Virus record (IMG/VR): IMGVR_UViG_3300042539_001740
Reading direction: 5' to 3' (one strand)
Source: a virus
Lineage: Duplodnaviria > Caudoviricetes
DNA length: 64,000 nucleotides
Below are positions 982-24,077 of this stretch, in pieces. The notes below the pieces were generated by a model. That model ran no database searches and had not been told where the DNA came from. It worked only from the letters and a program-made list of their open reading frames with translations. Within the stretch, counting starts at the first letter, position 1. Each line of letters starts with the position of its first letter. The position numbers and the translations under genes were made by a program.

Positions 982-1066
982 GGTCGGGTGGTGAAATTGG
1001 TATCCACGCAACACTTAAACCGTTGTGGTCAGTAAGACCTTATGAGTTCGAGTCTCATCCCGACTA
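982..1066 (+). tRNA. tRNA-Leu(TAA)
   Basis: Acceptor GGTCGGG/CCCGACT, discriminator A, 3-bp D stem, loop CT-TAA-AC, long variable arm, T arm ATGAG-TTCGAGT-CTCAT. CCA not encoded. Confidence 0.9.
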
Positions 1067-1073
1067 CAAAAAT

Positions 1074-1150
1074 ACCCCCTTGGCGGAATAGGTAGACGCG
1101 CATCATTTAGGATGATGTTTTGATTGAGAGTTCGATTCTCTCAGGGGGTA
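1074..1150 (+). tRNA. tRNA-Leu(TAG) with short variable region
   Basis: Acceptor ACCCCCT/AGGGGGT, discriminator A, anticodon arm CATCA-TTTAGGA-TGATG, 8-nt variable region, T arm GAGAG-TTCGATT-CTCTC. CCA not encoded. Confidence 0.85.
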
Positions 1151-1239
1151 CAAAAATTATCTTATGCTTTATGTAATGTTAATTGTACTATTAATATTTT
1201 ATATGTTGGGATTTTTAGATACTGACATTTAGGATATTT

Positions 1240-7881: not shown

Positions 7882-8250
7882 ATGGAAATTACTTATTTTG
7901 CTTTGGGTATGCTTTCGATGGTTGCTTTAACATTTGTTGGAGTTGTTGTTTGGGGTTTGTTCAGGGTCAGTAAAATTGAAAGACAAATTGCTGTCATAAA
8001 ACAAAACGATAGATTCGAGTTTGACAACGTTCAACGACAATTTGAAAATGTTTATCGTGGTATCGATAGTCAAAGGGATGATTACAGACACGAATTTGAA
8101 TCCGTGTTTCGTAGGTTTGAAACAATCGAGGAGAATTCAAGGTTGAATACCGATAACTTGGTGAGAATGATGAATGATAGATATGATGATTCAATTCGTT
8201 ACACAGACAAAAGAATTGATAAGTCATTAAATCAAAAAGAAGTATTATAA
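7882..8250 (+). CDS. Membrane-anchored coiled-coil protein
   Basis: N-terminal TM then a helical repeat-like region. Confidence 0.65.
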   Translation: MEITYFALGMLSMVALTFVGVVVWGLFRVSKIERQIAVIKQNDRFEFDNVQRQFENVYRGIDSQRDDYRHEFESVFRRFETIEENSRLNTDNLVRMMNDRYDDSIRYTDKRIDKSLNQKEVL

Positions 8251-8254
8251 CAAC

Positions 8255-8287
8255 AAACCCCTCCTAAAAAGAGGGGTTTATTTTTTT
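8255..8287. terminator. Terminator between 7882 gene and tmRNA
   Basis: AAACCCCTC-CTAAAAA-GAGGGGTTT followed by a T run. Confidence 0.75.
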
Positions 8288-8293
8288 CTGCGG

Positions 8294-8672
8294 TGGAGGT
8301 ATAGGGAGTCGAACCCTTTCCTGTCCATCTTAACTATTAAGGACTACATGCTTAGGACAACATTATTCGCAGTGCTCCGAGCTATTTGATTTTAATTACT
8401 ACCAAAACCAACAAAATCAGCCAATTCATTTTTAGGGATGAGAATTAGTTAGACAACCCTTCAGTGCTCCTGTTCCTGAGTTAATGCACCCCGACTCGAA
8501 AGTAATATCCTATTGACTAGGCTACTACCGCTTCTTCAGCACGGATTAAACCTACTGCAGAAAGTTTGTTGATAACGTTGCCGTGTATCGTTTCAAACCA
8601 GTTTAACGGACTTAGTTCAGGTCCGGCATGCCCCGAATAACTAACAACGTCAGTCGATTCCAGATTACCCCC
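8294..8672 (-). ncRNA. ssrA: tmRNA; tag ORF 8582-8517 encodes (A)GNVINKLSAVGLIRAEEAVVA
   Basis: 5' GGGGGTAATCTGGAATCGAC; 3' GGGTTCGACTCCC-TA-TACCTCC-A. Acceptor stem has the G3:U70 alanine determinant; internal ORF starts GGC and ends GCC-TAG. Confidence 0.93.
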
Positions 8673-8750
8673 ATATTTTCAATTAACTTTATACAAGGAT
8701 AAATATAAATAATGAATAAACCAAGGTATTTATAAAGAAAAATATTTTTT

Positions 8751-10145
8751 ATGACACCGAAGGAATTAGCTGATGAAGAATCAGAGATTAAATTTGAGGA
8801 TGATAAGGTTTTATTTATCAAAGTGAAAGGGTATGACGCTATGGACTACTACGCTTCTGAAAAATTGAAGAGAGAATATAATAAGTTCAATAGATATGGT
8901 GATGTCTATTTAATCGTTGATAAAGATGGTGAGAATAGTTATGTATTGAATCAAGTAAGAAATGGCTATACTGATGTGTTGGATTTTGATGGGATGGTAA
9001 ATAACTTTATGGATGTAATTGAGGATTATCCACAATTAGAATCGAAACTTGTTGAGTTCATTAAACCTGAGAACCCTTATGAAATGTTGTTATTAATTAA
9101 GGCGGGTAAAAAATATGATAAATGGGATATGAGAAGCATTGATGAATCTTTAAATGGGATGACACTTAACGAAAAGAATCCTGGTAAGAGTATGATTCAA
9201 CTTATGTTTGATGCTGATGAATATATATCTTTTTTTGACTATAAAGAAGGTGAATGGGATGCAAGGATATTGGGGTCTATATTTGGAAATAGTTATTATG
9301 GTAGTTCTTTTGATTTGATACCTAGTGATATGACTTGGGACGATTGGAAAGAAGGTTATATGTTTGGTTCATTTGATGATAAAAACAAAAAAAAGTTGGA
9401 TGATATTGTTTCATTTCTAATTCCTGGTGTAAAAGATTTAAAAGACAAAGATGAGGATAAATATAATAAGAGTGTTGTTCAGTTCTTAGATACCAATTTT
9501 CCGGTGGTTGGTGAAAGGATTGCTGATGAGTACAATTCATTAAGAAACGAATCCGCAGTAGAAAAAATCAAAGAAATTGGTATAAAAGATATTGCGGATG
9601 TATTCCAACAATATGGGGTTTTCAGAAAATCAGGTGTTTTTACAAATTATGTGACAACCGTAAATATCCTATTAAGTTTATATAAAAAAACTCAAAGTAA
9701 ACAAGCAACAATTGTTGAACTATTTAAGGAATTGGGTGAAGAAATGGACTTAGATATTGGTTATTATAATGAAGTGGCTATGGATAGTTGGGATTTTGAT
9801 TTTGAACAATTTAATGATGTTGTTGGTGACCAATTGGATACAATATTAGAAGAAATAGAAGATGAACCTGAAAAGTTTGAGGCCTTCAAAAACTATGCCG
9901 ATGTATTGAAAAAACTTAATGATATGGGTTACCAAATTGGTGGTCAATATAAATTACCAAACACGGAAAATTCATTCAGAATTGACGAAATTAGAAAAGA
10001 CGACTCAAAAGTAGTAATAGTTCATTGGAATAAATCATCAGGAAGGGGAGAAAGAAGAAGTTACACAATAGAAGAGTTTGTTAATTATTTACATTCACCA
10101 GAACTTTTTGAAAGTTTAGTAAAAAGATTGAAAAGAATTATGTAA
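8751..10145 (+). CDS. Large acidic hypothetical protein, probably late/virion
   Basis: 464-aa ORF; TATTTAT upstream; C-terminal LFESLVKRLKRIM. Confidence 0.75.
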   Translation: MTPKELADEESEIKFEDDKVLFIKVKGYDAMDYYASEKLKREYNKFNRYGDVYLIVDKDGENSYVLNQVRNGYTDVLDFDGMVNNFMDVIEDYPQLESKLVEFIKPENPYEMLLLIKAGKKYDKWDMRSIDESLNGMTLNEKNPGKSMIQLMFDADEYISFFDYKEGEWDARILGSIFGNSYYGSSFDLIPSDMTWDDWKEGYMFGSFDDKNKKKLDDIVSFLIPGVKDLKDKDEDKYNKSVVQFLDTNFPVVGERIADEYNSLRNESAVEKIKEIGIKDIADVFQQYGVFRKSGVFTNYVTTVNILLSLYKKTQSKQATIVELFKELGEEMDLDIGYYNEVAMDSWDFDFEQFNDVVGDQLDTILEEIEDEPEKFEAFKNYADVLKKLNDMGYQIGGQYKLPNTENSFRIDEIRKDDSKVVIVHWNKSSGRGERRSYTIEEFVNYLHSPELFESLVKRLKRIM

Positions 10146-10154
10146 TATTGTTCT

Positions 10155-10946
10155 ATGGAACAAAATATCAATTTTTTAAAAAGGGTTTTATCTGTCCCCA
10201 CAAAAACATATAAAGAGGATTTAATGATTCAATTTTTAACCGAATGGTTGGTTGAAAATAATATTCCTTATTTTGTTGATAAGATGGGAAATGTTTATGC
10301 AACCAAACAAACTGATGAGGTTGAATATTTTCCTTGTGTCGTTGCCCACACAGATACCGTTCACGAGCTCGATACAATCAATATTCGTGAGATGATGTTA
10401 CCCAATGACCAAAACGAATTAAAGATGGCCTTAAAGGCTTTTAATGACCAAGGATTACCCACTGGAATTGGGGGTGATGACAAATGTGGTGTTTATGTTT
10501 GTTTGGAGTTATTAAAACAATTACCAAATGTCAAAGCAGCTTTCTTTGTATCGGAAGAAACAGGATGTCATGGGTCAAAAAAAGCCGATAAAGATTTCTT
10601 CTCAAATGTTGGTTATGTTATGCAATTTGATGCTCCTGGTAATTGGATGGTCAGTGAGTATTGTATGGGTGTCAAACTATTTGATAAGGGTAGTGATTTC
10701 TTCGATAAATGTGACAAAGTATTAACGGAGGGTTTTAATAGTCGAAACAAATACCAATCCCACCCTTATACTGATGTTTACGCACTTAAACAACTATTTG
10801 ATTTTTCCTGTATAAACTTTGCTGTTGGTTATTACAACTATCACACAGAACACGAATATGTAATTGTTGATGATGTATATAATACTTTGGATATTGCTAA
10901 GAAAATGATATCTGAGTTGGGTACAAAAAAATACACTAAAAAATAA
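10155..10946 (+). CDS. M28/M20-clan Zn peptidase
   Basis: VAHTDTVH, GGDDKCG, SEETGC, FD and YHT metal-ligand motifs. Confidence 0.8.
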   Translation: MEQNINFLKRVLSVPTKTYKEDLMIQFLTEWLVENNIPYFVDKMGNVYATKQTDEVEYFPCVVAHTDTVHELDTINIREMMLPNDQNELKMALKAFNDQGLPTGIGGDDKCGVYVCLELLKQLPNVKAAFFVSEETGCHGSKKADKDFFSNVGYVMQFDAPGNWMVSEYCMGVKLFDKGSDFFDKCDKVLTEGFNSRNKYQSHPYTDVYALKQLFDFSCINFAVGYYNYHTEHEYVIVDDVYNTLDIAKKMISELGTKKYTKK

Positions 10947-10987
10947 TTTTTTTTTCATATATTACTATATTTATAAATAAAAAAATT

Positions 10988-11659
10988 ATGAGTAAGTATA
11001 GAAATATTAATGAAAGTGACATCGAAAGATTATCTAATATAATTTTAGAAACTGAATCTCAAACAGAAGAATTAGACGAAATTCTAAGTGGTACTAAAGC
11101 TAGTGACTTTTTCCAAGGTGTAAGAGGTTTTATGAAAGGTGAAAGTTTTGGTTATTTTAAATTTTTGAGTAAAATTAAAAATAGAAGTCAAAAAGTAATT
11201 AAAGAACTTGATGACATTGAAAAATTTATGGAAGAACTCAAGGAGTTAAAACCAAGAGTTGATAAGTTATCAATCGCACCTGAGAAAAAAATGAGATTGT
11301 TAAAACTTTTGGATTTTGTTATTACAAAGTGGGAACCATTTTTTCCTGGTTACAAAAAAGCTTTAGGTGAAATAAATCTTTTATCTACTGAAAAATTGAG
11401 TGGACAACGATTAGATGTTGTTCCTGGTTCAAAGAGAGCGCAAATAGGTAAAGATTTGATGATGTCAAAGGATGAAATGAGTCCTGAAGAAGATTTGAGT
11501 AAACCTGAAGTGGTTGATTTTGATACTACAACAACTACAACAACTAAGAAGTCAACAAGTCCTTTAACAAGTACAGGTGAAACAAAGGGTACAGAGGAAA
11601 AGAAAAAAGAAGAAAATTTAAAAGAGGAAATTGATAGATTCAAACAATTAATAAAATAA
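10988..11659 (+). CDS. Hypothetical protein with N-terminal INESDIERL and C-terminal LKEEIDRFKQLIK motifs; Thr-rich linker
   Basis: ORF track; TATTTAT at 10968. Confidence 0.75.
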   Translation: MSKYRNINESDIERLSNIILETESQTEELDEILSGTKASDFFQGVRGFMKGESFGYFKFLSKIKNRSQKVIKELDDIEKFMEELKELKPRVDKLSIAPEKKMRLLKLLDFVITKWEPFFPGYKKALGEINLLSTEKLSGQRLDVVPGSKRAQIGKDLMMSKDEMSPEEDLSKPEVVDFDTTTTTTTKKSTSPLTSTGETKGTEEKKKEENLKEEIDRFKQLIK

Positions 11660-11661
11660 TA

Positions 11662-11689
11662 AAAAAAGGGACTATTCAGTCCCTTTTTT
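11662..11689. terminator. Bidirectional terminator
   Basis: AAAAAAGGGACT-ATTC-AGTCCCTTTTTT between convergent genes. Confidence 0.85.
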
Positions 11690-13702
11690 CTTTTTGGTTT
11701 TTTTGGTTTCCTTTTCTTTGAAAATTATACTTTCATTATCTACGGTTAGAATGTATTGTTCATTTTCTATAATTTTACCATTTAACACCTCTTCTGATAC
11801 AAAATCTTCAATTTTATCTTGAATTGCTCTTTTGATTGGTCTGGCACCATATGTTTCATCAAAACCAACTTTAGAAATTAATTCTAAAACTGAATCATCA
11901 CAAGAAATATTATAATTCAAACCTTCTAATCTTTTAATTAGTTTATCGACCTCTAATTTAACAATTTGTTTTACTTCGTCTTCCTTCAATGTATTAAAAA
12001 CAATAATTTCATCAATACGATTAAGGAATTCAGGGGCAAAGAATTTCTGCAATTCCTTTTTTAACATATCCCTTTTATGTTCCTCTTCAATGTAAACATT
12101 CGCGTTTGTTTTGAATCCAACACCAGTACCAAAATCTTGTAGTTTTTTGACACCAAGGTTTGAGGTCATAATAATGATACAATTCTTGAAATTAATTTTT
12201 CTTCCAAGACCATCAGTAAGATGTCCATCGTCTAAAACTTGGAGTAACGTTGCAAACACGTCTTTATTTGCTTTCTCAATTTCATCGAATAAAATAACTG
12301 AATATGGTTTATTTTTCACTTGTTCGGTAAGTTGTCCCCCTTCATCGTAACCAACGTAACCTGGAGGTGAACCAATTAATCTTGATATTGAATGTTTTTC
12401 TTGGAATTCTGACATATCAACACGGATTAGATTTTCTTCACTACCAAATATTTCCTTAGCTAATTGTTTGGCTAAATAAGTTTTACCCACACCTGTTGAG
12501 CCTAAGAAAATAAATGAACCAATTGGTTTATTAGGGTCTTTAATCCCCAATCTATTTCTCCTTATTGCTTTTGCGATTTTAAGAACAGCTTCTGATTGTC
12601 CAATAACTTTCGAAGCCAAATTGTTATCAAGAGATGAAAGTTTATTAGTTTCATCAGAATCCATTTTTGAGACAGGAATCTTAGTCATATTAGATACAAC
12701 TTCATAAACTAGTTCCACACTAACTTCTTTCTTTTTGTTTAATAAATCAAATTCGAATTTCTTTTTTTCCTCTTCTAACTTATCTAATATTTTTGTTTCC
12801 TTATCTCTTAAATCTGCAGCCAGTTCATAGTTTTGACTTTTTACAACATCTATTTTTTGTTTTTTTATTTCTTGGGCTTGTGTTTTCAAATCCTCCACAA
12901 TTTGGGGCATTTTAATTTCAACCTGACTTCTTGCTCCGACTTCATCAATAATGTCAAATGCCTTATCCGGAAATTCTCTATCTGTAATATATCTTTCTGC
13001 TAAATCAACACAAAGTTTAAGTACATCATCACTATAATTTACTTTATGGTAATTTTCATATTTGTCTTTGACATTTAATAAAATTTGTAATGTTTCATCT
13101 TTAGTTGATGGGTCAACAATTACTTTTTGGAATCGTCTTTCTAATGCCCCATCTTTTTCAAAATTCTTTCTATATTCATCCAAAGTGGTTGCACCAATAC
13201 ATTGGATTTCCCCTCTTGCTAAGGCTGGTTTAAATATGTTAGAGGCATCCAATGAACCTGATGAATTACCTGCACCAACAATTTGATGGATTTCATCGAT
13301 AAACAAAATGATATTTGGGGCGGCTTGTAGTTCTTCTATAATCACCTTCATTCTTTCCTCAAATTGTCCTCTATATTTTGTACCTGCAACAATTGAGGTC
13401 ATATCTAAGGACATAATTCTTTTATCCATTAGATTTCTTGGACAATCTCCATTCAATATTTTCAAGGCCAAACCTTCTACTATAGCGGTTTTTCCACAAC
13501 CTGGTTCACCGATTATAATTGGATTATTTTTCTTTCTTCTTGATAATATTTGGGCTATTCTTGTTATTTCTCTATCTCTACCTACAACAGGGTCTAATTT
13601 TCCCTCCTCCGCAAGTTTAACCAAATCTTTTGCAAAATTATTTAATACTGGTGTGTCGCCCTTACCTTTACTTGAGTAATCTCCATCTTTAGATTCTATC
13701 AT
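11672..13702 (-). CDS. clpC: ClpC-type AAA+ unfoldase lacking the N-terminal Clp-repeat domain (likely start ATG 13702)
   Basis: Two AAA modules (GEPGCGKT, FIDEIH; GSTGVGKT, LFDEIEK), UVR-type M domain (NYELAADLRD) and a VGF ClpP-docking loop. Confidence 0.92.
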   Translation of the reverse strand: MIESKDGDYSSKGKGDTPVLNNFAKDLVKLAEEGKLDPVVGRDREITRIAQILSRRKKNNPIIIGEPGCGKTAIVEGLALKILNGDCPRNLMDKRIMSLDMTSIVAGTKYRGQFEERMKVIIEELQAAPNIILFIDEIHQIVGAGNSSGSLDASNIFKPALARGEIQCIGATTLDEYRKNFEKDGALERRFQKVIVDPSTKDETLQILLNVKDKYENYHKVNYSDDVLKLCVDLAERYITDREFPDKAFDIIDEVGARSQVEIKMPQIVEDLKTQAQEIKKQKIDVVKSQNYELAADLRDKETKILDKLEEEKKKFEFDLLNKKKEVSVELVYEVVSNMTKIPVSKMDSDETNKLSSLDNNLASKVIGQSEAVLKIAKAIRRNRLGIKDPNKPIGSFIFLGSTGVGKTYLAKQLAKEIFGSEENLIRVDMSEFQEKHSISRLIGSPPGYVGYDEGGQLTEQVKNKPYSVILFDEIEKANKDVFATLLQVLDDGHLTDGLGRKINFKNCIIIMTSNLGVKKLQDFGTGVGFKTNANVYIEEEHKRDMLKKELQKFFAPEFLNRIDEIIVFNTLKEDEVKQIVKLEVDKLIKRLEGLNYNISCDDSVLELISKVGFDETYGARPIKRAIQDKIEDFVSEEVLNGKIIENEQYILTVDNESIIFKEKETKKTKKKKGTE

Positions 13703-13755
13703 AACTTTTTTATTTAATAATAATGTTTTATTTGGTATTTTCAACAATCTTGTAA

Positions 13756-23889: not shown

Positions 23890-24077
23890 TCTATTTTATT
23901 TTTGATTTTTTGAACATATTTTGCTTTGTTCAATTCAGTTCTTCTTTTGACTGAATTTTTAACAAATTCCTTTCTGTTTTTTAACTCAGTCATCAATTTG
24001 GTCTTGATAACTTTACTTTTAAAAAGTTTCAAGGCCTTTTCTATTGGTGTTTTATTATCGACTTTGATTATTAGCAT
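23886..24077 (-). CDS. rpsU: Ribosomal protein bS21 (start likely ATG 24077)
   Basis: MLIIKVD...IEKALKLFKSKV.KTKLMTELKNRKEFVKNSVKRR; position among head genes matches known bS21 phages. Confidence 0.9.
   Translation of the reverse strand: MLIIKVDNKTPIEKALKLFKSKVIKTKLMTELKNRKEFVKNSVKRRTELNKAKYVQKIKNKID

What the first reader, a model, noticed from the sequence alone, without database searches (positions are those of the whole stretch)
8294..8672. Phage tmRNA with a 21-residue tag ending -AVVA
Seen: an intact tRNA-like domain (G3:U70) and a tag ORF (A)GNVINKLSAVGLIRAEEAVVA*. Two late-type motifs lie 27-39 nt upstream, and the 3' end reads A-CC-G, so CCA is incomplete. Established: Bacteroidota tags are short (about GETNYALAA-type), and ClpXP reads the C-terminal AA. 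tmRNAs are known in large phages. Inference: the longer, helical, non-AA tag could redirect rescued polypeptides to another protease (for example the phage ClpC) or stabilise them, while still freeing ribosomes stalled by host anti-phage RNases.
Basis: partly seen in the sequence, partly recalled or inferred. Interest (0 to 1): 0.7.

Follow-up and report, generated by a model that had tools for sequence, protein, structure and literature searches.

The report
Jumbo-phage tmRNA with private long tag
A giant lake phage of Bacteroidota carries a working-looking copy of the bacterial ribosome-rescue RNA (tmRNA), and its 21-residue tag is unlike its hosts' 9-residue tag and kept as a peptide across hundreds of related phage contigs; which protease reads it is untested.

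Summary
Rfam finds a full-length one-piece tmRNA at 8291-8672 on the minus strand (95.4 bits, cut-off 47). It has G3:U70, discriminator A and no encoded CCA. The tag is GNVINKLSAVGLIRAEEAVVA, starting at a GGC resume codon.

The record is a 194-kb fragment (66% complete) of a bS21-encoding freshwater jumbo phage; that lineage is predicted to infect Bacteroidota.

An unbiased sample of relatives shows the same 21-22-residue tag family. The N-terminal core and the C-terminal Ala are conserved, and synonymous codon changes occur at invariant residues. The tag's first 11 codons are absent from 185,579 prokaryote species genomes. Flavobacteriaceae tags are 9 residues, GENNYALAA type.

Metatranscriptome contigs cover only the gene body. 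Both complete relatives encode SmpB.

- An N-domain-less ClpC-like ATPase with a ClpP-docking VGF loop always lies 2-3 kb away, but this is synteny within one collinear lineage.
- Some relatives' tags end in -AA or -TA.
- An -LVA ending is degraded well in E. coli.
- No amphipathic helix is indicated.

This scan found the same tmRNA family before in related phage genomes, with similar verdicts. It is a new variant of a known kind (phage tmRNA) and of moderate interest.

The parts
8291..8672 (-). One-piece tmRNA gene. The 5' G is at 8672 and the discriminator A at 8294. Positions 8293-8291 read CCG, so CCA is not encoded.
   Evidence: Rfam RF00023 at 95.4 bits over the full model. 27 of 63 predicted pairs show compensatory changes and G3:U70 is invariant. 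Metatranscriptome contigs cover only 8321-8664.
8517..8582 (-). Tag reading frame. The resume codon GGC is at 8582-8580, followed by 21 codons giving GNVINKLSAVGLIRAEEAVVA and a TAG stop at 8519-8517.
   Evidence: Sequence and translation. ARAGORN makes the same call in near relatives. Synonymous codon variation occurs at invariant residues. An unbiased sample of relatives gives the same tag family.
8586..8587 (-). U-5 and A-4 upstream of the resume codon, the frame-setting positions.
   Evidence: Invariant in all upstream contexts of the family. They correspond to E. coli U85/A86 (PMC2481249).
8694..8724 (-). Promoter-like region. It holds TTG (8724-8722), two overlapping TATTTAT motifs (8711-8699) and TATCCTTG (8701-8694), which is one mismatch from the Bacteroidota -7 box TAnnTTTG. 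This would leave a leader of about 20 nt for RNase P to remove.
   Evidence: Sequence. Relatives carry an exact TAnnTTTG at the same place. ATATTTAT lies upstream of 29 of 180 gene calls. Promoter function is inferred.
8255..8279 (.). G+C-rich hairpin with T runs on both strands. It is a likely bidirectional terminator for the tmRNA and for the convergent ORF 7882-8250.
   Evidence: Terminator scan found 3 sites against 0.3 expected.
8751..10145 (+). 464-aa ORF of unknown family, transcribed divergently from the tmRNA. It evolves fast: 24-48% identity in relatives whose flanking genes are 66-92% identical.
   Evidence: No Pfam or PHROG hit. Synteny and identities.
10155..10946 (+). M42/M28/M20-type metallopeptidase, part of the conserved block.
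   Evidence: Pfam and phrog_4191. 546 viral stretches encode relatives.
11672..13747 (-). ClpC-like double AAA+ unfoldase without the N-domain. It has both Walker A/B pairs, a short M-domain with a UVR motif and a VGF ClpP-docking loop. It is a candidate reader of the tag by proximity only, and that link is untested.
   Evidence: Pfam and NCBIfam. The best PDB matches are ClpC from residue about 155 onward. VGF aligns with the AGF/LGF loop of ClpC. It was present next to the tmRNA in 57 of 57 loci with enough flank.

Best explanation
This is a functional, transcribed one-piece tmRNA of a freshwater jumbo phage of Bacteroidota.

Proposed mechanism:
- It is transcribed from a host-type promoter.
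- It is trimmed, given CCA and charged with alanine through G3:U70.
- With SmpB it enters stalled ribosomes. SmpB is phage-encoded in both complete relatives; for this fragment it is either host SmpB or a gene in the missing third of the genome.
- It frees the ribosome and appends A-GNVINKLSAVGLIRAEEAVVA to the nascent chain.

The tag is selected as a peptide and shows a two-part conservation pattern. There is an invariant N-terminal core (NK-[LM]-x-x-[VI]-G-L-[IV]-R), a variable middle, and a small hydrophobic C-terminus, mostly -VA and always ending in Ala.

The most likely reading is that the tag is still a degradation signal. The C-terminus would be read like -AA, and the conserved core would be read by some further factor that is not yet identified.

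Shown: the gene, its structure, the tag, its conservation and its difference from host tags. Inferred: charging, tagging, degradation and the existence of a core-binding factor.
For: - Rfam gives a full-length match.
- Compensatory changes occur in the acceptor stem, P2 helix, PK1 hairpin and T arm, and G3:U70 is invariant.
- The resume codon is supported by the Rfam alignment, by ARAGORN in relatives, by U-5/A-4 and by the host-type Gly resume codon.
- The tag region is the best-conserved part of the RNA, while the pseudoknot regions carry large indels.
- There are 27 distinct tag-coding sequences with synonymous variation at invariant Gly, Val, Leu, Arg and Glu positions and at the terminal Val-Ala.
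- In the unbiased sample taken through the neighbouring peptidase, 69 of 80 loci hold the tmRNA (the other 11 are cut short on that side). Every complete tag frame read in these loci is of the 21-22-residue type; two further loci hold only the 5' part of the gene.
- The tag's first 11 codons are absent from 185,579 species genomes.
- Host-family tags are 9 residues long.
- RNA-library contigs from two studies cover only the gene body and not the flanking ORFs.
- SmpB is present in both complete relatives, G001 and G004.
- The gene has its own promoter-like region and terminator.
- -LVA works as a ClpXP degron in E. coli.
- A long tag reads out to another protease in Mycoplasma, which is a precedent for specificity being encoded in a long tag.
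Against: - There is no direct evidence of charging, tagging or degradation.
- No SmpB was found in the held 66% of this genome.
- The contigs are Logan assemblies, so they show presence in RNA libraries but not RNA ends or levels.
- Part of the tag's nucleotide conservation could come from an RNA hairpin predicted inside the tag region.
- All relatives belong to one collinear lineage, so many contigs do not amount to many independent observations.
Confidence: 0.6

Rival explanations
1. Private tag-and-destroy route. The conserved tag core is read by the neighbouring N-domain-less ClpC-like unfoldase, which docks on ClpP (host, or phage where present). Rescued products would then be cleared separately from host ssrA substrates, and the adjacent aminopeptidase-like enzyme would finish the peptides.
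For: - The ClpC-like gene lies 2-3 kb from the tmRNA on the same strand in G000, G001, G002, G003 and G004 and in 57 of 57 loci with enough flank.
- The block tmRNA - ORF - peptidase - ClpC is conserved, while the DNA beyond the tmRNA differs in G004.
- The protein keeps its Walker motifs, pore loops and a VGF loop aligned to the ClpP-docking loop of ClpC.
- It lacks the N-domain that binds the usual adaptors.
- G004 encodes a true ClpP-like protein.
Against: - The synteny lies within one collinear lineage and is not independent evidence.
- No ClpP was found in complete relative G001 or in the held part of this genome.
- In other huge phages with ClpC-like genes, the tmRNA is absent or about 360 kb away.
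- The tmRNA and ClpC gene are separated by oppositely oriented genes, so they are not one operon.
- No binding test was possible.
Confidence: 0.2
2. Plain helper. The phage tmRNA only adds ribosome-rescue capacity during infection. The tag is an ordinary degron handled by host ClpXP and other proteases, and its length and core have no separate function.
For: - Phage tmRNAs are known and usually explained this way.
- The C-terminus is small and hydrophobic, and it switches between -VA, -TA and -AA among relatives.
- -LVA is degraded nearly as fast as -LAA in E. coli.
- Bacterial tags vary widely in length.
Against: If only the last residues mattered, the first 14 residues should drift. Instead they are nearly invariant, with synonymous codon changes, across phages whose SmpB is 45% identical, whose ClpC-like protein is 69% identical and whose neighbouring ORF is 24-30% identical.
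Confidence: 0.15
3. Tag as a protective or sorting signal, or the tmRNA as a competitor of the host tmRNA. Rescued chains would be spared from ClpXP, or host trans-translation would be displaced.
For: The tag differs from the host tag over its whole length. Complete relatives bring their own SmpB, which would allow competition with the host system.
Against: The C-terminal Ala preceded by Val/Thr/Ala resembles known degron ends. Nothing in the data points to stabilisation.
Confidence: 0.04
4. Non-functional remnant or attachment-site fragment of a host tmRNA.
For: Many temperate phages carry tmRNA pieces. ARAGORN does not call this copy.
Against: The gene is full length, with covariation, its own promoter-like region and terminator, a conserved frame and presence in RNA libraries. 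It has no blastn likeness to Flavobacterium genomes.
Confidence: 0.01

Closest known systems
One-piece tmRNA (SsrA, Rfam RF00023) of Flavobacteriaceae and other Bacteroidota, with tag GENNYALAA or close variants
   Same: Same overall architecture: G3:U70, discriminator A, Gly (GGC) resume codon preceded by UA at -5/-4, a TAnnTTTG-type promoter and no encoded CCA in most copies.
   Different: - The tag is 21-22 residues instead of 9 and has no sequence likeness beyond the first Gly.
- The Rfam score is 95 bits, against 111-170 bits for host-family genes.
- There is no blastn match to Flavobacterium genomes.
- The tag pattern is absent from 185,579 species genomes.
Phage-encoded tmRNAs: mycobacteriophage Bxz1 group, Bacillus phage G (PMC4131195), huge phages with tmRNA and SmpB (PMC7162821), and the two-piece tmRNA of phage Melnitz; 402 of 18,146 phage genomes carry one (PMC9004378)
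   Same: A complete tmRNA gene in a large lytic-type phage that also carries many tRNAs, with SmpB present in complete relatives.
   Different: - No GenBank phage record matches it by blastn.
- It belongs to the bS21 phages of freshwater Bacteroidota, whose paper does not mention tmRNA in its main text.
- In the papers searched I found no analysis of a phage tag that is conserved yet unlike the host tag.
Mycoplasma 27-residue ssrA tag, degraded by Lon instead of ClpXP (Gur and Sauer 2008, as cited in PMC8403727)
   Same: An unusually long, hydrophobic-rich tag. It is a precedent that tag length and inner residues can set protease choice.
   Different: That switch occurs in a bacterium that lacks ClpXP. 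Here the tag sits on a phage whose hosts keep the short tag, and the reader of the tag is unknown.
E. coli ssrA tag with its two-part code: AANDENY read by the adaptor SspB, LAA read by ClpX
   Same: The conservation pattern is two-part: a conserved N-terminal stretch, a variable middle and a conserved C-terminal end.
   Different: No SspB homologue was found in this phage or five relatives. The N-terminal core is unrelated in sequence, and binding by any adaptor is only an inference.

Membership tests
One-piece tmRNA (Rfam RF00023) | Covariance-model score above the curated gathering score over the full model | tested here: met
   95.4 bits against 47, model positions 1-374; repeated on the whole record.
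One-piece tmRNA (Rfam RF00023) | tRNA-Ala-like domain: 7-bp acceptor stem with G3:U70, discriminator A, T arm with a GUUCGA-type loop | tested here: met
   Sequence. G3:U70 is invariant in 28 of 28. Acceptor pairs 5-7 and the T-stem pairs change in a compensatory way. In this copy the outermost T-stem pair is A-A.
One-piece tmRNA (Rfam RF00023) | Long-range helix P2 joining the 5' and 3' parts, and pseudoknot PK1 before the tag | tested here: met
   Both P2 and the PK1 hairpin (columns 49-53 with 63-67, 12-13 double changes) are supported. The second PK1 stem and PK2-PK4 were not tested because RNAalifold cannot draw pseudoknots.
One-piece tmRNA (Rfam RF00023) | Tag reading frame with a defined resume codon, upstream frame-setting A, and an in-frame stop | tested here: met
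   GGC resume codon, U-5/A-4 invariant, 21 codons then TAG; the frame is kept in all relatives.
One-piece tmRNA (Rfam RF00023) | SmpB partner available | tested here: inconclusive
   No SmpB in the held 194 kb. SmpB is present in complete relatives G001 and G004 and in G002. The part of the genome where relatives carry it is not covered by any contig of this clade. Host SmpB could also serve.
One-piece tmRNA (Rfam RF00023) | Made as a stable RNA | tested here: inconclusive
   Contigs of four metatranscriptome runs from two studies cover 8321-8664 only, with none on the flanking ORFs. Contigs cannot show RNA ends, strand or level.
One-piece tmRNA (Rfam RF00023) | Alanylation and trans-translation activity | not testable with these tools
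   Needs biochemistry or mass spectrometry.
ClpXP-type ssrA degron | C-terminal -LAA (Ala-Ala-COOH) | tested here: not met
   This tag ends in -VVA, and relatives mostly end in -VA, with a few -TA or -AA. The engineered -LVA end still works in E. coli, so failing this test does not show escape from ClpXP.
ClpC (class I Hsp100 unfoldase partnering ClpP) | Two AAA+ modules, a short M-domain with UVR motif, and a ClpP-docking (V/A/L)GF loop | tested here: met
   Pfam AAA, AAA_lid_9, AAA_2, ClpB_D2-small and UVR. A single-stretch match to ClpC structures. VGF aligned to the AGF/LGF loop.
ClpC (class I Hsp100 unfoldase partnering ClpP) | N-terminal Clp_N domain that binds adaptors (MecA, McsB) | tested here: not met
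   The match to ClpC starts at about residue 155 of the solved chains; only about 25 unrelated residues precede it.

The most novel reading that the evidence does not exclude
The phage runs a private quality-control channel. Its own tmRNA (with its own SmpB) writes a phage-only degron, whose conserved core is recognised by the adjacent N-domain-less ClpC-like unfoldase working with ClpP. Stalled products in the infected cell would then be cleared without competing with, or depending on, the host's ssrA-ClpXP route.
Probability: 0.2. Interest if true: 0.75.

Novelty: new variant of a known kind. Interest (0 to 1): 0.45.

Why it matters
Phage tmRNAs are usually listed and then passed over. In this case the phage tag is unrelated to the host tag, more than twice its length, and held constant as a peptide across a large lineage of abundant lake phages. 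That implies the tag's sequence matters to the phage, not only ribosome release.

This turns a general question, what a phage gains from its own tmRNA, into specific tests. One can ask which protease or adaptor reads the conserved core, and whether the phage's own SmpB and ClpC-like protein form a separate route.

It also shows that ARAGORN-based surveys undercount such genes, because ARAGORN misses this copy.

Tried and rejected
- A first pattern scan (5' end plus GGCATGCCG) gave one chance match, L007. It is not a tmRNA.
- blastn of the tmRNA against 50,697 GenBank phage records found no match.
- ARAGORN on the window, and on the region at a lowered threshold, found nothing.
- blastn against three Flavobacterium genomes gave only chance hits.
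- The exact upstream 16-mer is not repeated in the window beyond chance.
- The sigma-70 consensus scan found nothing useful upstream of the gene, as expected for a Bacteroidota-type promoter.
- The helical hydrophobic moment of four tag variants is no higher than in shuffles, so an amphipathic helix is not indicated.
- No SspB family member was found in six records.
- Two SmpB scans found no SmpB on contigs of this window's own clade. Those contigs do not reach the region where relatives carry the gene, so this says nothing either way.
- Two published huge phages with ClpC-like genes were checked for a linked tmRNA. One has none above the cut-off and the other has it about 360 kb away.
- Complex prediction was not used. 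The tag is shorter than the 30 residues the tool asks for, and a pass would have been hard to interpret.
- Parts of the stretch without cover in the RNA runs are not used as evidence of silence.

Full report
**What is there**

Rfam's tmRNA model (RF00023) matches window 8291-8672 on the minus strand over all 374 model positions. The score is 95.4 bits against a gathering score of 47 (repeated on the whole record).

Read on the minus strand, the gene starts GGGGGUA and ends UACCUCC-A-CCG. The acceptor stem therefore carries G3:U70, the discriminator is A, and CCA is not fully encoded.

ARAGORN does not call this copy, even at a lowered threshold. It does call near relatives. In this copy the outermost T-stem pair is A-A.

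A G+C-rich hairpin with T runs on both strands lies 12 nt beyond the 3' end, at 8255-8279.

**The tag**

From GGC at 8582-8580 the frame reads GNVINKLSAVGLIRAEEAVVA and stops at TAG 8519-8517. Five things support this resume codon:
- It aligns with the resume codon of the Rfam consensus.
- ARAGORN reports exactly this tag for L030 and L049, whose tmRNA is 90% identical.
- U at -5 and A at -4 are invariant in every family member. These are the positions of E. coli U85/A86, which set the frame (PMC2481249).
- Flavobacteriaceae tmRNAs also resume at a Gly GGC codon in a similar context.
- The frame is kept in all relatives.

**Whose genome**

The window lies in an IMG/VR virus record of 194,498 bases, estimated 66% complete. 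The record carries 15 tRNA genes.

It encodes ribosomal protein bS21, as do relatives of up to 322 kb. This fits the bS21 phages of freshwater Bacteroidetes described by Chen et al. 2022. That paper predicts Flavobacteriia and related hosts, and its main text does not mention tmRNA (PMC9723584).

Two further observations agree with a Bacteroidota host:
- Shine-Dalgarno motifs upstream of 180 crude gene calls are at background level.
- The tmRNA's upstream region holds TTG, a 20-nt spacer and TATCCTTG, where relatives have an exact TAnnTTTG.

The 8-mer ATATTTAT lies upstream of 29 of 180 gene calls. Nothing shows that the motif is 'late'.

**Relatives**

A degenerate scan for the first 13 tag codons found 45 viral loci, holding 27 distinct tmRNA sequences 70-96% identical to the window's. 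A looser pattern raised this to 101 stretches, of which 80 were listed.

These scans select on the tag, so I took a second sample through the neighbouring peptidase gene. There, 546 viral stretches encode a relative and the best 80 were kept.
- 69 of the 80 loci hold the tmRNA.
- The other 11 are cut short on that side.
- Every complete tag frame read is of the same 21-22-residue type: G-[NE]-x-x-x-[KT]-[LM]-x-x-[VI]-G-L-[IV]-R, then a variable stretch, then [V/T/A]-A. Two further loci hold only the 5' part of the gene.

Most tags end in -VA. L425 and L428 end in -VTA, and L424 and L433 end in -VAA.

Among 27 distinct tag-coding sequences, invariant residues use several codons. Val10 uses four, Gly11 three and Leu12 both TTA and CTT. 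Unselected positions vary in the same way: Glu17 uses GAA/GAG, the terminal Val GTA/GTG and the terminal Ala GCC/GCG/GCT.

The tag columns are the best-conserved part of the alignment, while the pseudoknot regions carry large insertions and deletions. RNAalifold also predicts a hairpin inside the tag region, so some nucleotide constraint from RNA structure is possible. The double synonymous Leu change and the conservative replacements in G004 (GNILNKMALVGLVRQDELVNVA) point to selection on the peptide.

**RNA structure**

In 28 sequences, 27 of 63 predicted pairs keep pairing through changes on both sides. These lie in acceptor pairs 5-7, the long P2 helix, the PK1 hairpin, a 3' hairpin and the T stem. 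G1-C, G2-C and G3-U never vary.

**Comparison with hosts**

- The first 11 tag codons occur in none of 185,579 bacterial and archaeal species genomes.
- A scan for GE-x-NYA-x-AA found more than 120 loci, nearly all Bacteroidota.
- In 121 genomes of the family of a lake Flavobacterium MAG, 116 have a tmRNA above the cut-off, at 111-170 bits. Of 30 sampled, 28 encode a 9-residue G[ED]xx[YF]x[LM]AA tag; the other two look like miscalls.
- The phage tmRNA has no blastn likeness to three Flavobacterium genomes.

**Expression**

Six metatranscriptome runs hold about a third of the stretch's sampled words. I laid four of them, from two studies, on 8100-8900. Their contigs cover 8321-8664 only.

None of these contigs reaches the flanking ORFs. 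One contig type ends at 8664, eight bases from the 5' end, followed by adapter sequence. Other contigs match only the tag region and then diverge, as more distant family members would.

These are assembled contigs, so this is a hint that the RNA is made and accumulates. It is not proof, and it says nothing about RNA ends.

**SmpB and proteases**

No SmpB was found in the held part of this genome. Both complete relatives have one: G001 (322 kb) about 94 kb from its tmRNA, and G004 (309 kb) about 195 kb away in the linear record. Fragment G002 has one too.

In G001 and G002 the gene lies about 94 kb beyond the tmRNA. Contigs of this window's clade end 18-66 kb beyond it, so the question stays open for this phage.

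No SspB was found in six records. No ClpP was found here or in G001. G004 has a true ClpP-like gene, scoring 227 bits to a ClpP model against 60-70 bits to head-maturation models.

**The neighbourhood**

The order is:
- tmRNA (minus strand);
- a fast-evolving 464-aa ORF (plus strand);
- an M42/M28-type peptidase (plus strand);
- a small ORF;
- a ClpC-like gene (minus strand);
- an 80-aa ORF;
- a nucleotidyltransferase-like ORF.

This block is the same in G001, G003 and G004 and in every family locus with enough flank; in G002 the same genes were found apart from the fast-evolving ORF. In the peptidase sample, all 57 loci with enough flank on both sides hold both the tmRNA and the ClpC-like gene.

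The ClpC-like protein matches solved ClpC structures from about residue 155 onward, so it lacks the adaptor-binding N-domain. It keeps both Walker A/B pairs and both pore loops. Its VGF aligns with the ClpP-docking AGF/LGF loop.

All of these phages are collinear relatives, so the constant neighbourhood is one observation and not many. In two published huge phages with ClpC-like genes at 47-59% identity, the tmRNA is either not found above the cut-off or lies about 360 kb away.

**What it most likely does**

The gene has every sequence mark of a working tmRNA, so ribosome rescue with tagging is the base reading.

The whole-length conservation of a tag unlike the host's argues that the peptide has a specific reader. 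The pattern (constant N-terminal core, variable middle, small hydrophobic end) resembles the two-part design of the E. coli tag, which has an SspB site plus a ClpX site.

The C-terminus is probably still degron-like, for two reasons. It alternates between -VA, -TA and -AA among relatives. And an -LVA end gives a half-life of about 13 min, against about 8 min for -LAA, in E. coli (PMC3511798).

The Mycoplasma 27-residue tag, read by Lon, shows that a long tag can carry a change of protease (PMC8403727). The claimed helical character is not supported by a hydrophobic-moment check.

**Novelty**

Phage tmRNAs are known from mycobacteriophages and phage G (PMC4131195), from huge phages that also carry SmpB (PMC7162821), and from 402 of 18,146 phage genomes (PMC9004378).

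What I did not find in the papers searched is a phage lineage whose tag is unlike its hosts' tag and is held constant as a peptide.

Earlier agents of this scan reached much the same verdict on related phage genomes.
- an unbiased sample of tags;
- the tags that end in -AA and -TA;
- SmpB in both complete relatives;
- the cover by RNA-library contigs;
- the assignment to the bS21 lineage.

Noticed in passing
window 23910-24068 (minus strand): Ribosomal protein bS21 gene (Pfam 45.8 bits). It places this phage in the published bS21-phage lineage of freshwater Bacteroidota. G001, G002 and G003 have it, but the complete relative G004 does not.
   Followed up: partly
L061, L064, L078, L081, L087, L092, L104, L105, L107, L110, L131, L134; L077, L102, L103; L108: Other viral tmRNA families with long tags were called by ARAGORN. 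One is DVELSTMTFEDAMAFVGADYA[VLI]AA (24 aa, 12 contigs). Another is GNVYNNMEVSGLLATSKVAA (20 aa), which resembles this family at GNV.N and GL. A third is GNNTVSLDFGRKMALVA. No ClpC-like gene lies in their fetched flanks.
   Followed up: partly
L008-L012 compared with window 8291-13747: Mosaicism. In these contigs the 464-aa ORF and the peptidase are 99-100% identical to the window's, but the tmRNA is 95.8% identical and the ClpC-like protein 91-93%. This suggests recent recombination within the block.
   Followed up: no
window 8751-10145 (plus strand): The ORF between the tmRNA and the peptidase has no family hit. It is only 24-48% identical in relatives whose neighbouring genes are 66-92% identical. 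It is a fast-evolving gene at a fixed place.
   Followed up: partly
LR756508.1 414804-414915 (L473) and LR745206.1 419836-419927 (L472): Short hits to the tmRNA model in published huge phages: 112 nt at 58 bits and 92 nt at 22.8 bits. The second lies 3.4 kb upstream of that phage's ClpC-like gene. They may be tRNA-like-domain-only mini-tmRNAs or plain tRNAs.
   Followed up: no
IMG/VR contigs of this clade (G003; L025 contig 3300005662_000021): Two long contigs of the window's own clade both end about 65-66 kb beyond the tmRNA on the same side, short of where relatives carry SmpB. This may mark a repeat or a hypervariable region that breaks assemblies.
   Followed up: no
window 982-1151 (plus strand): Two adjacent tRNA-Leu genes (anticodons UAA and UAG). 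They are the last two of the 15 phage tRNA genes in the record's coordinates; the other 13 lie beyond this end of the window.
   Followed up: no
G004:C1:11295-11699 (L165): The complete relative G004 encodes a PolyA_pol/CCA-adding-type nucleotidyltransferase domain (73 bits). None was found in G000 or G001. This bears on how a tmRNA without encoded CCA is matured.
   Followed up: no
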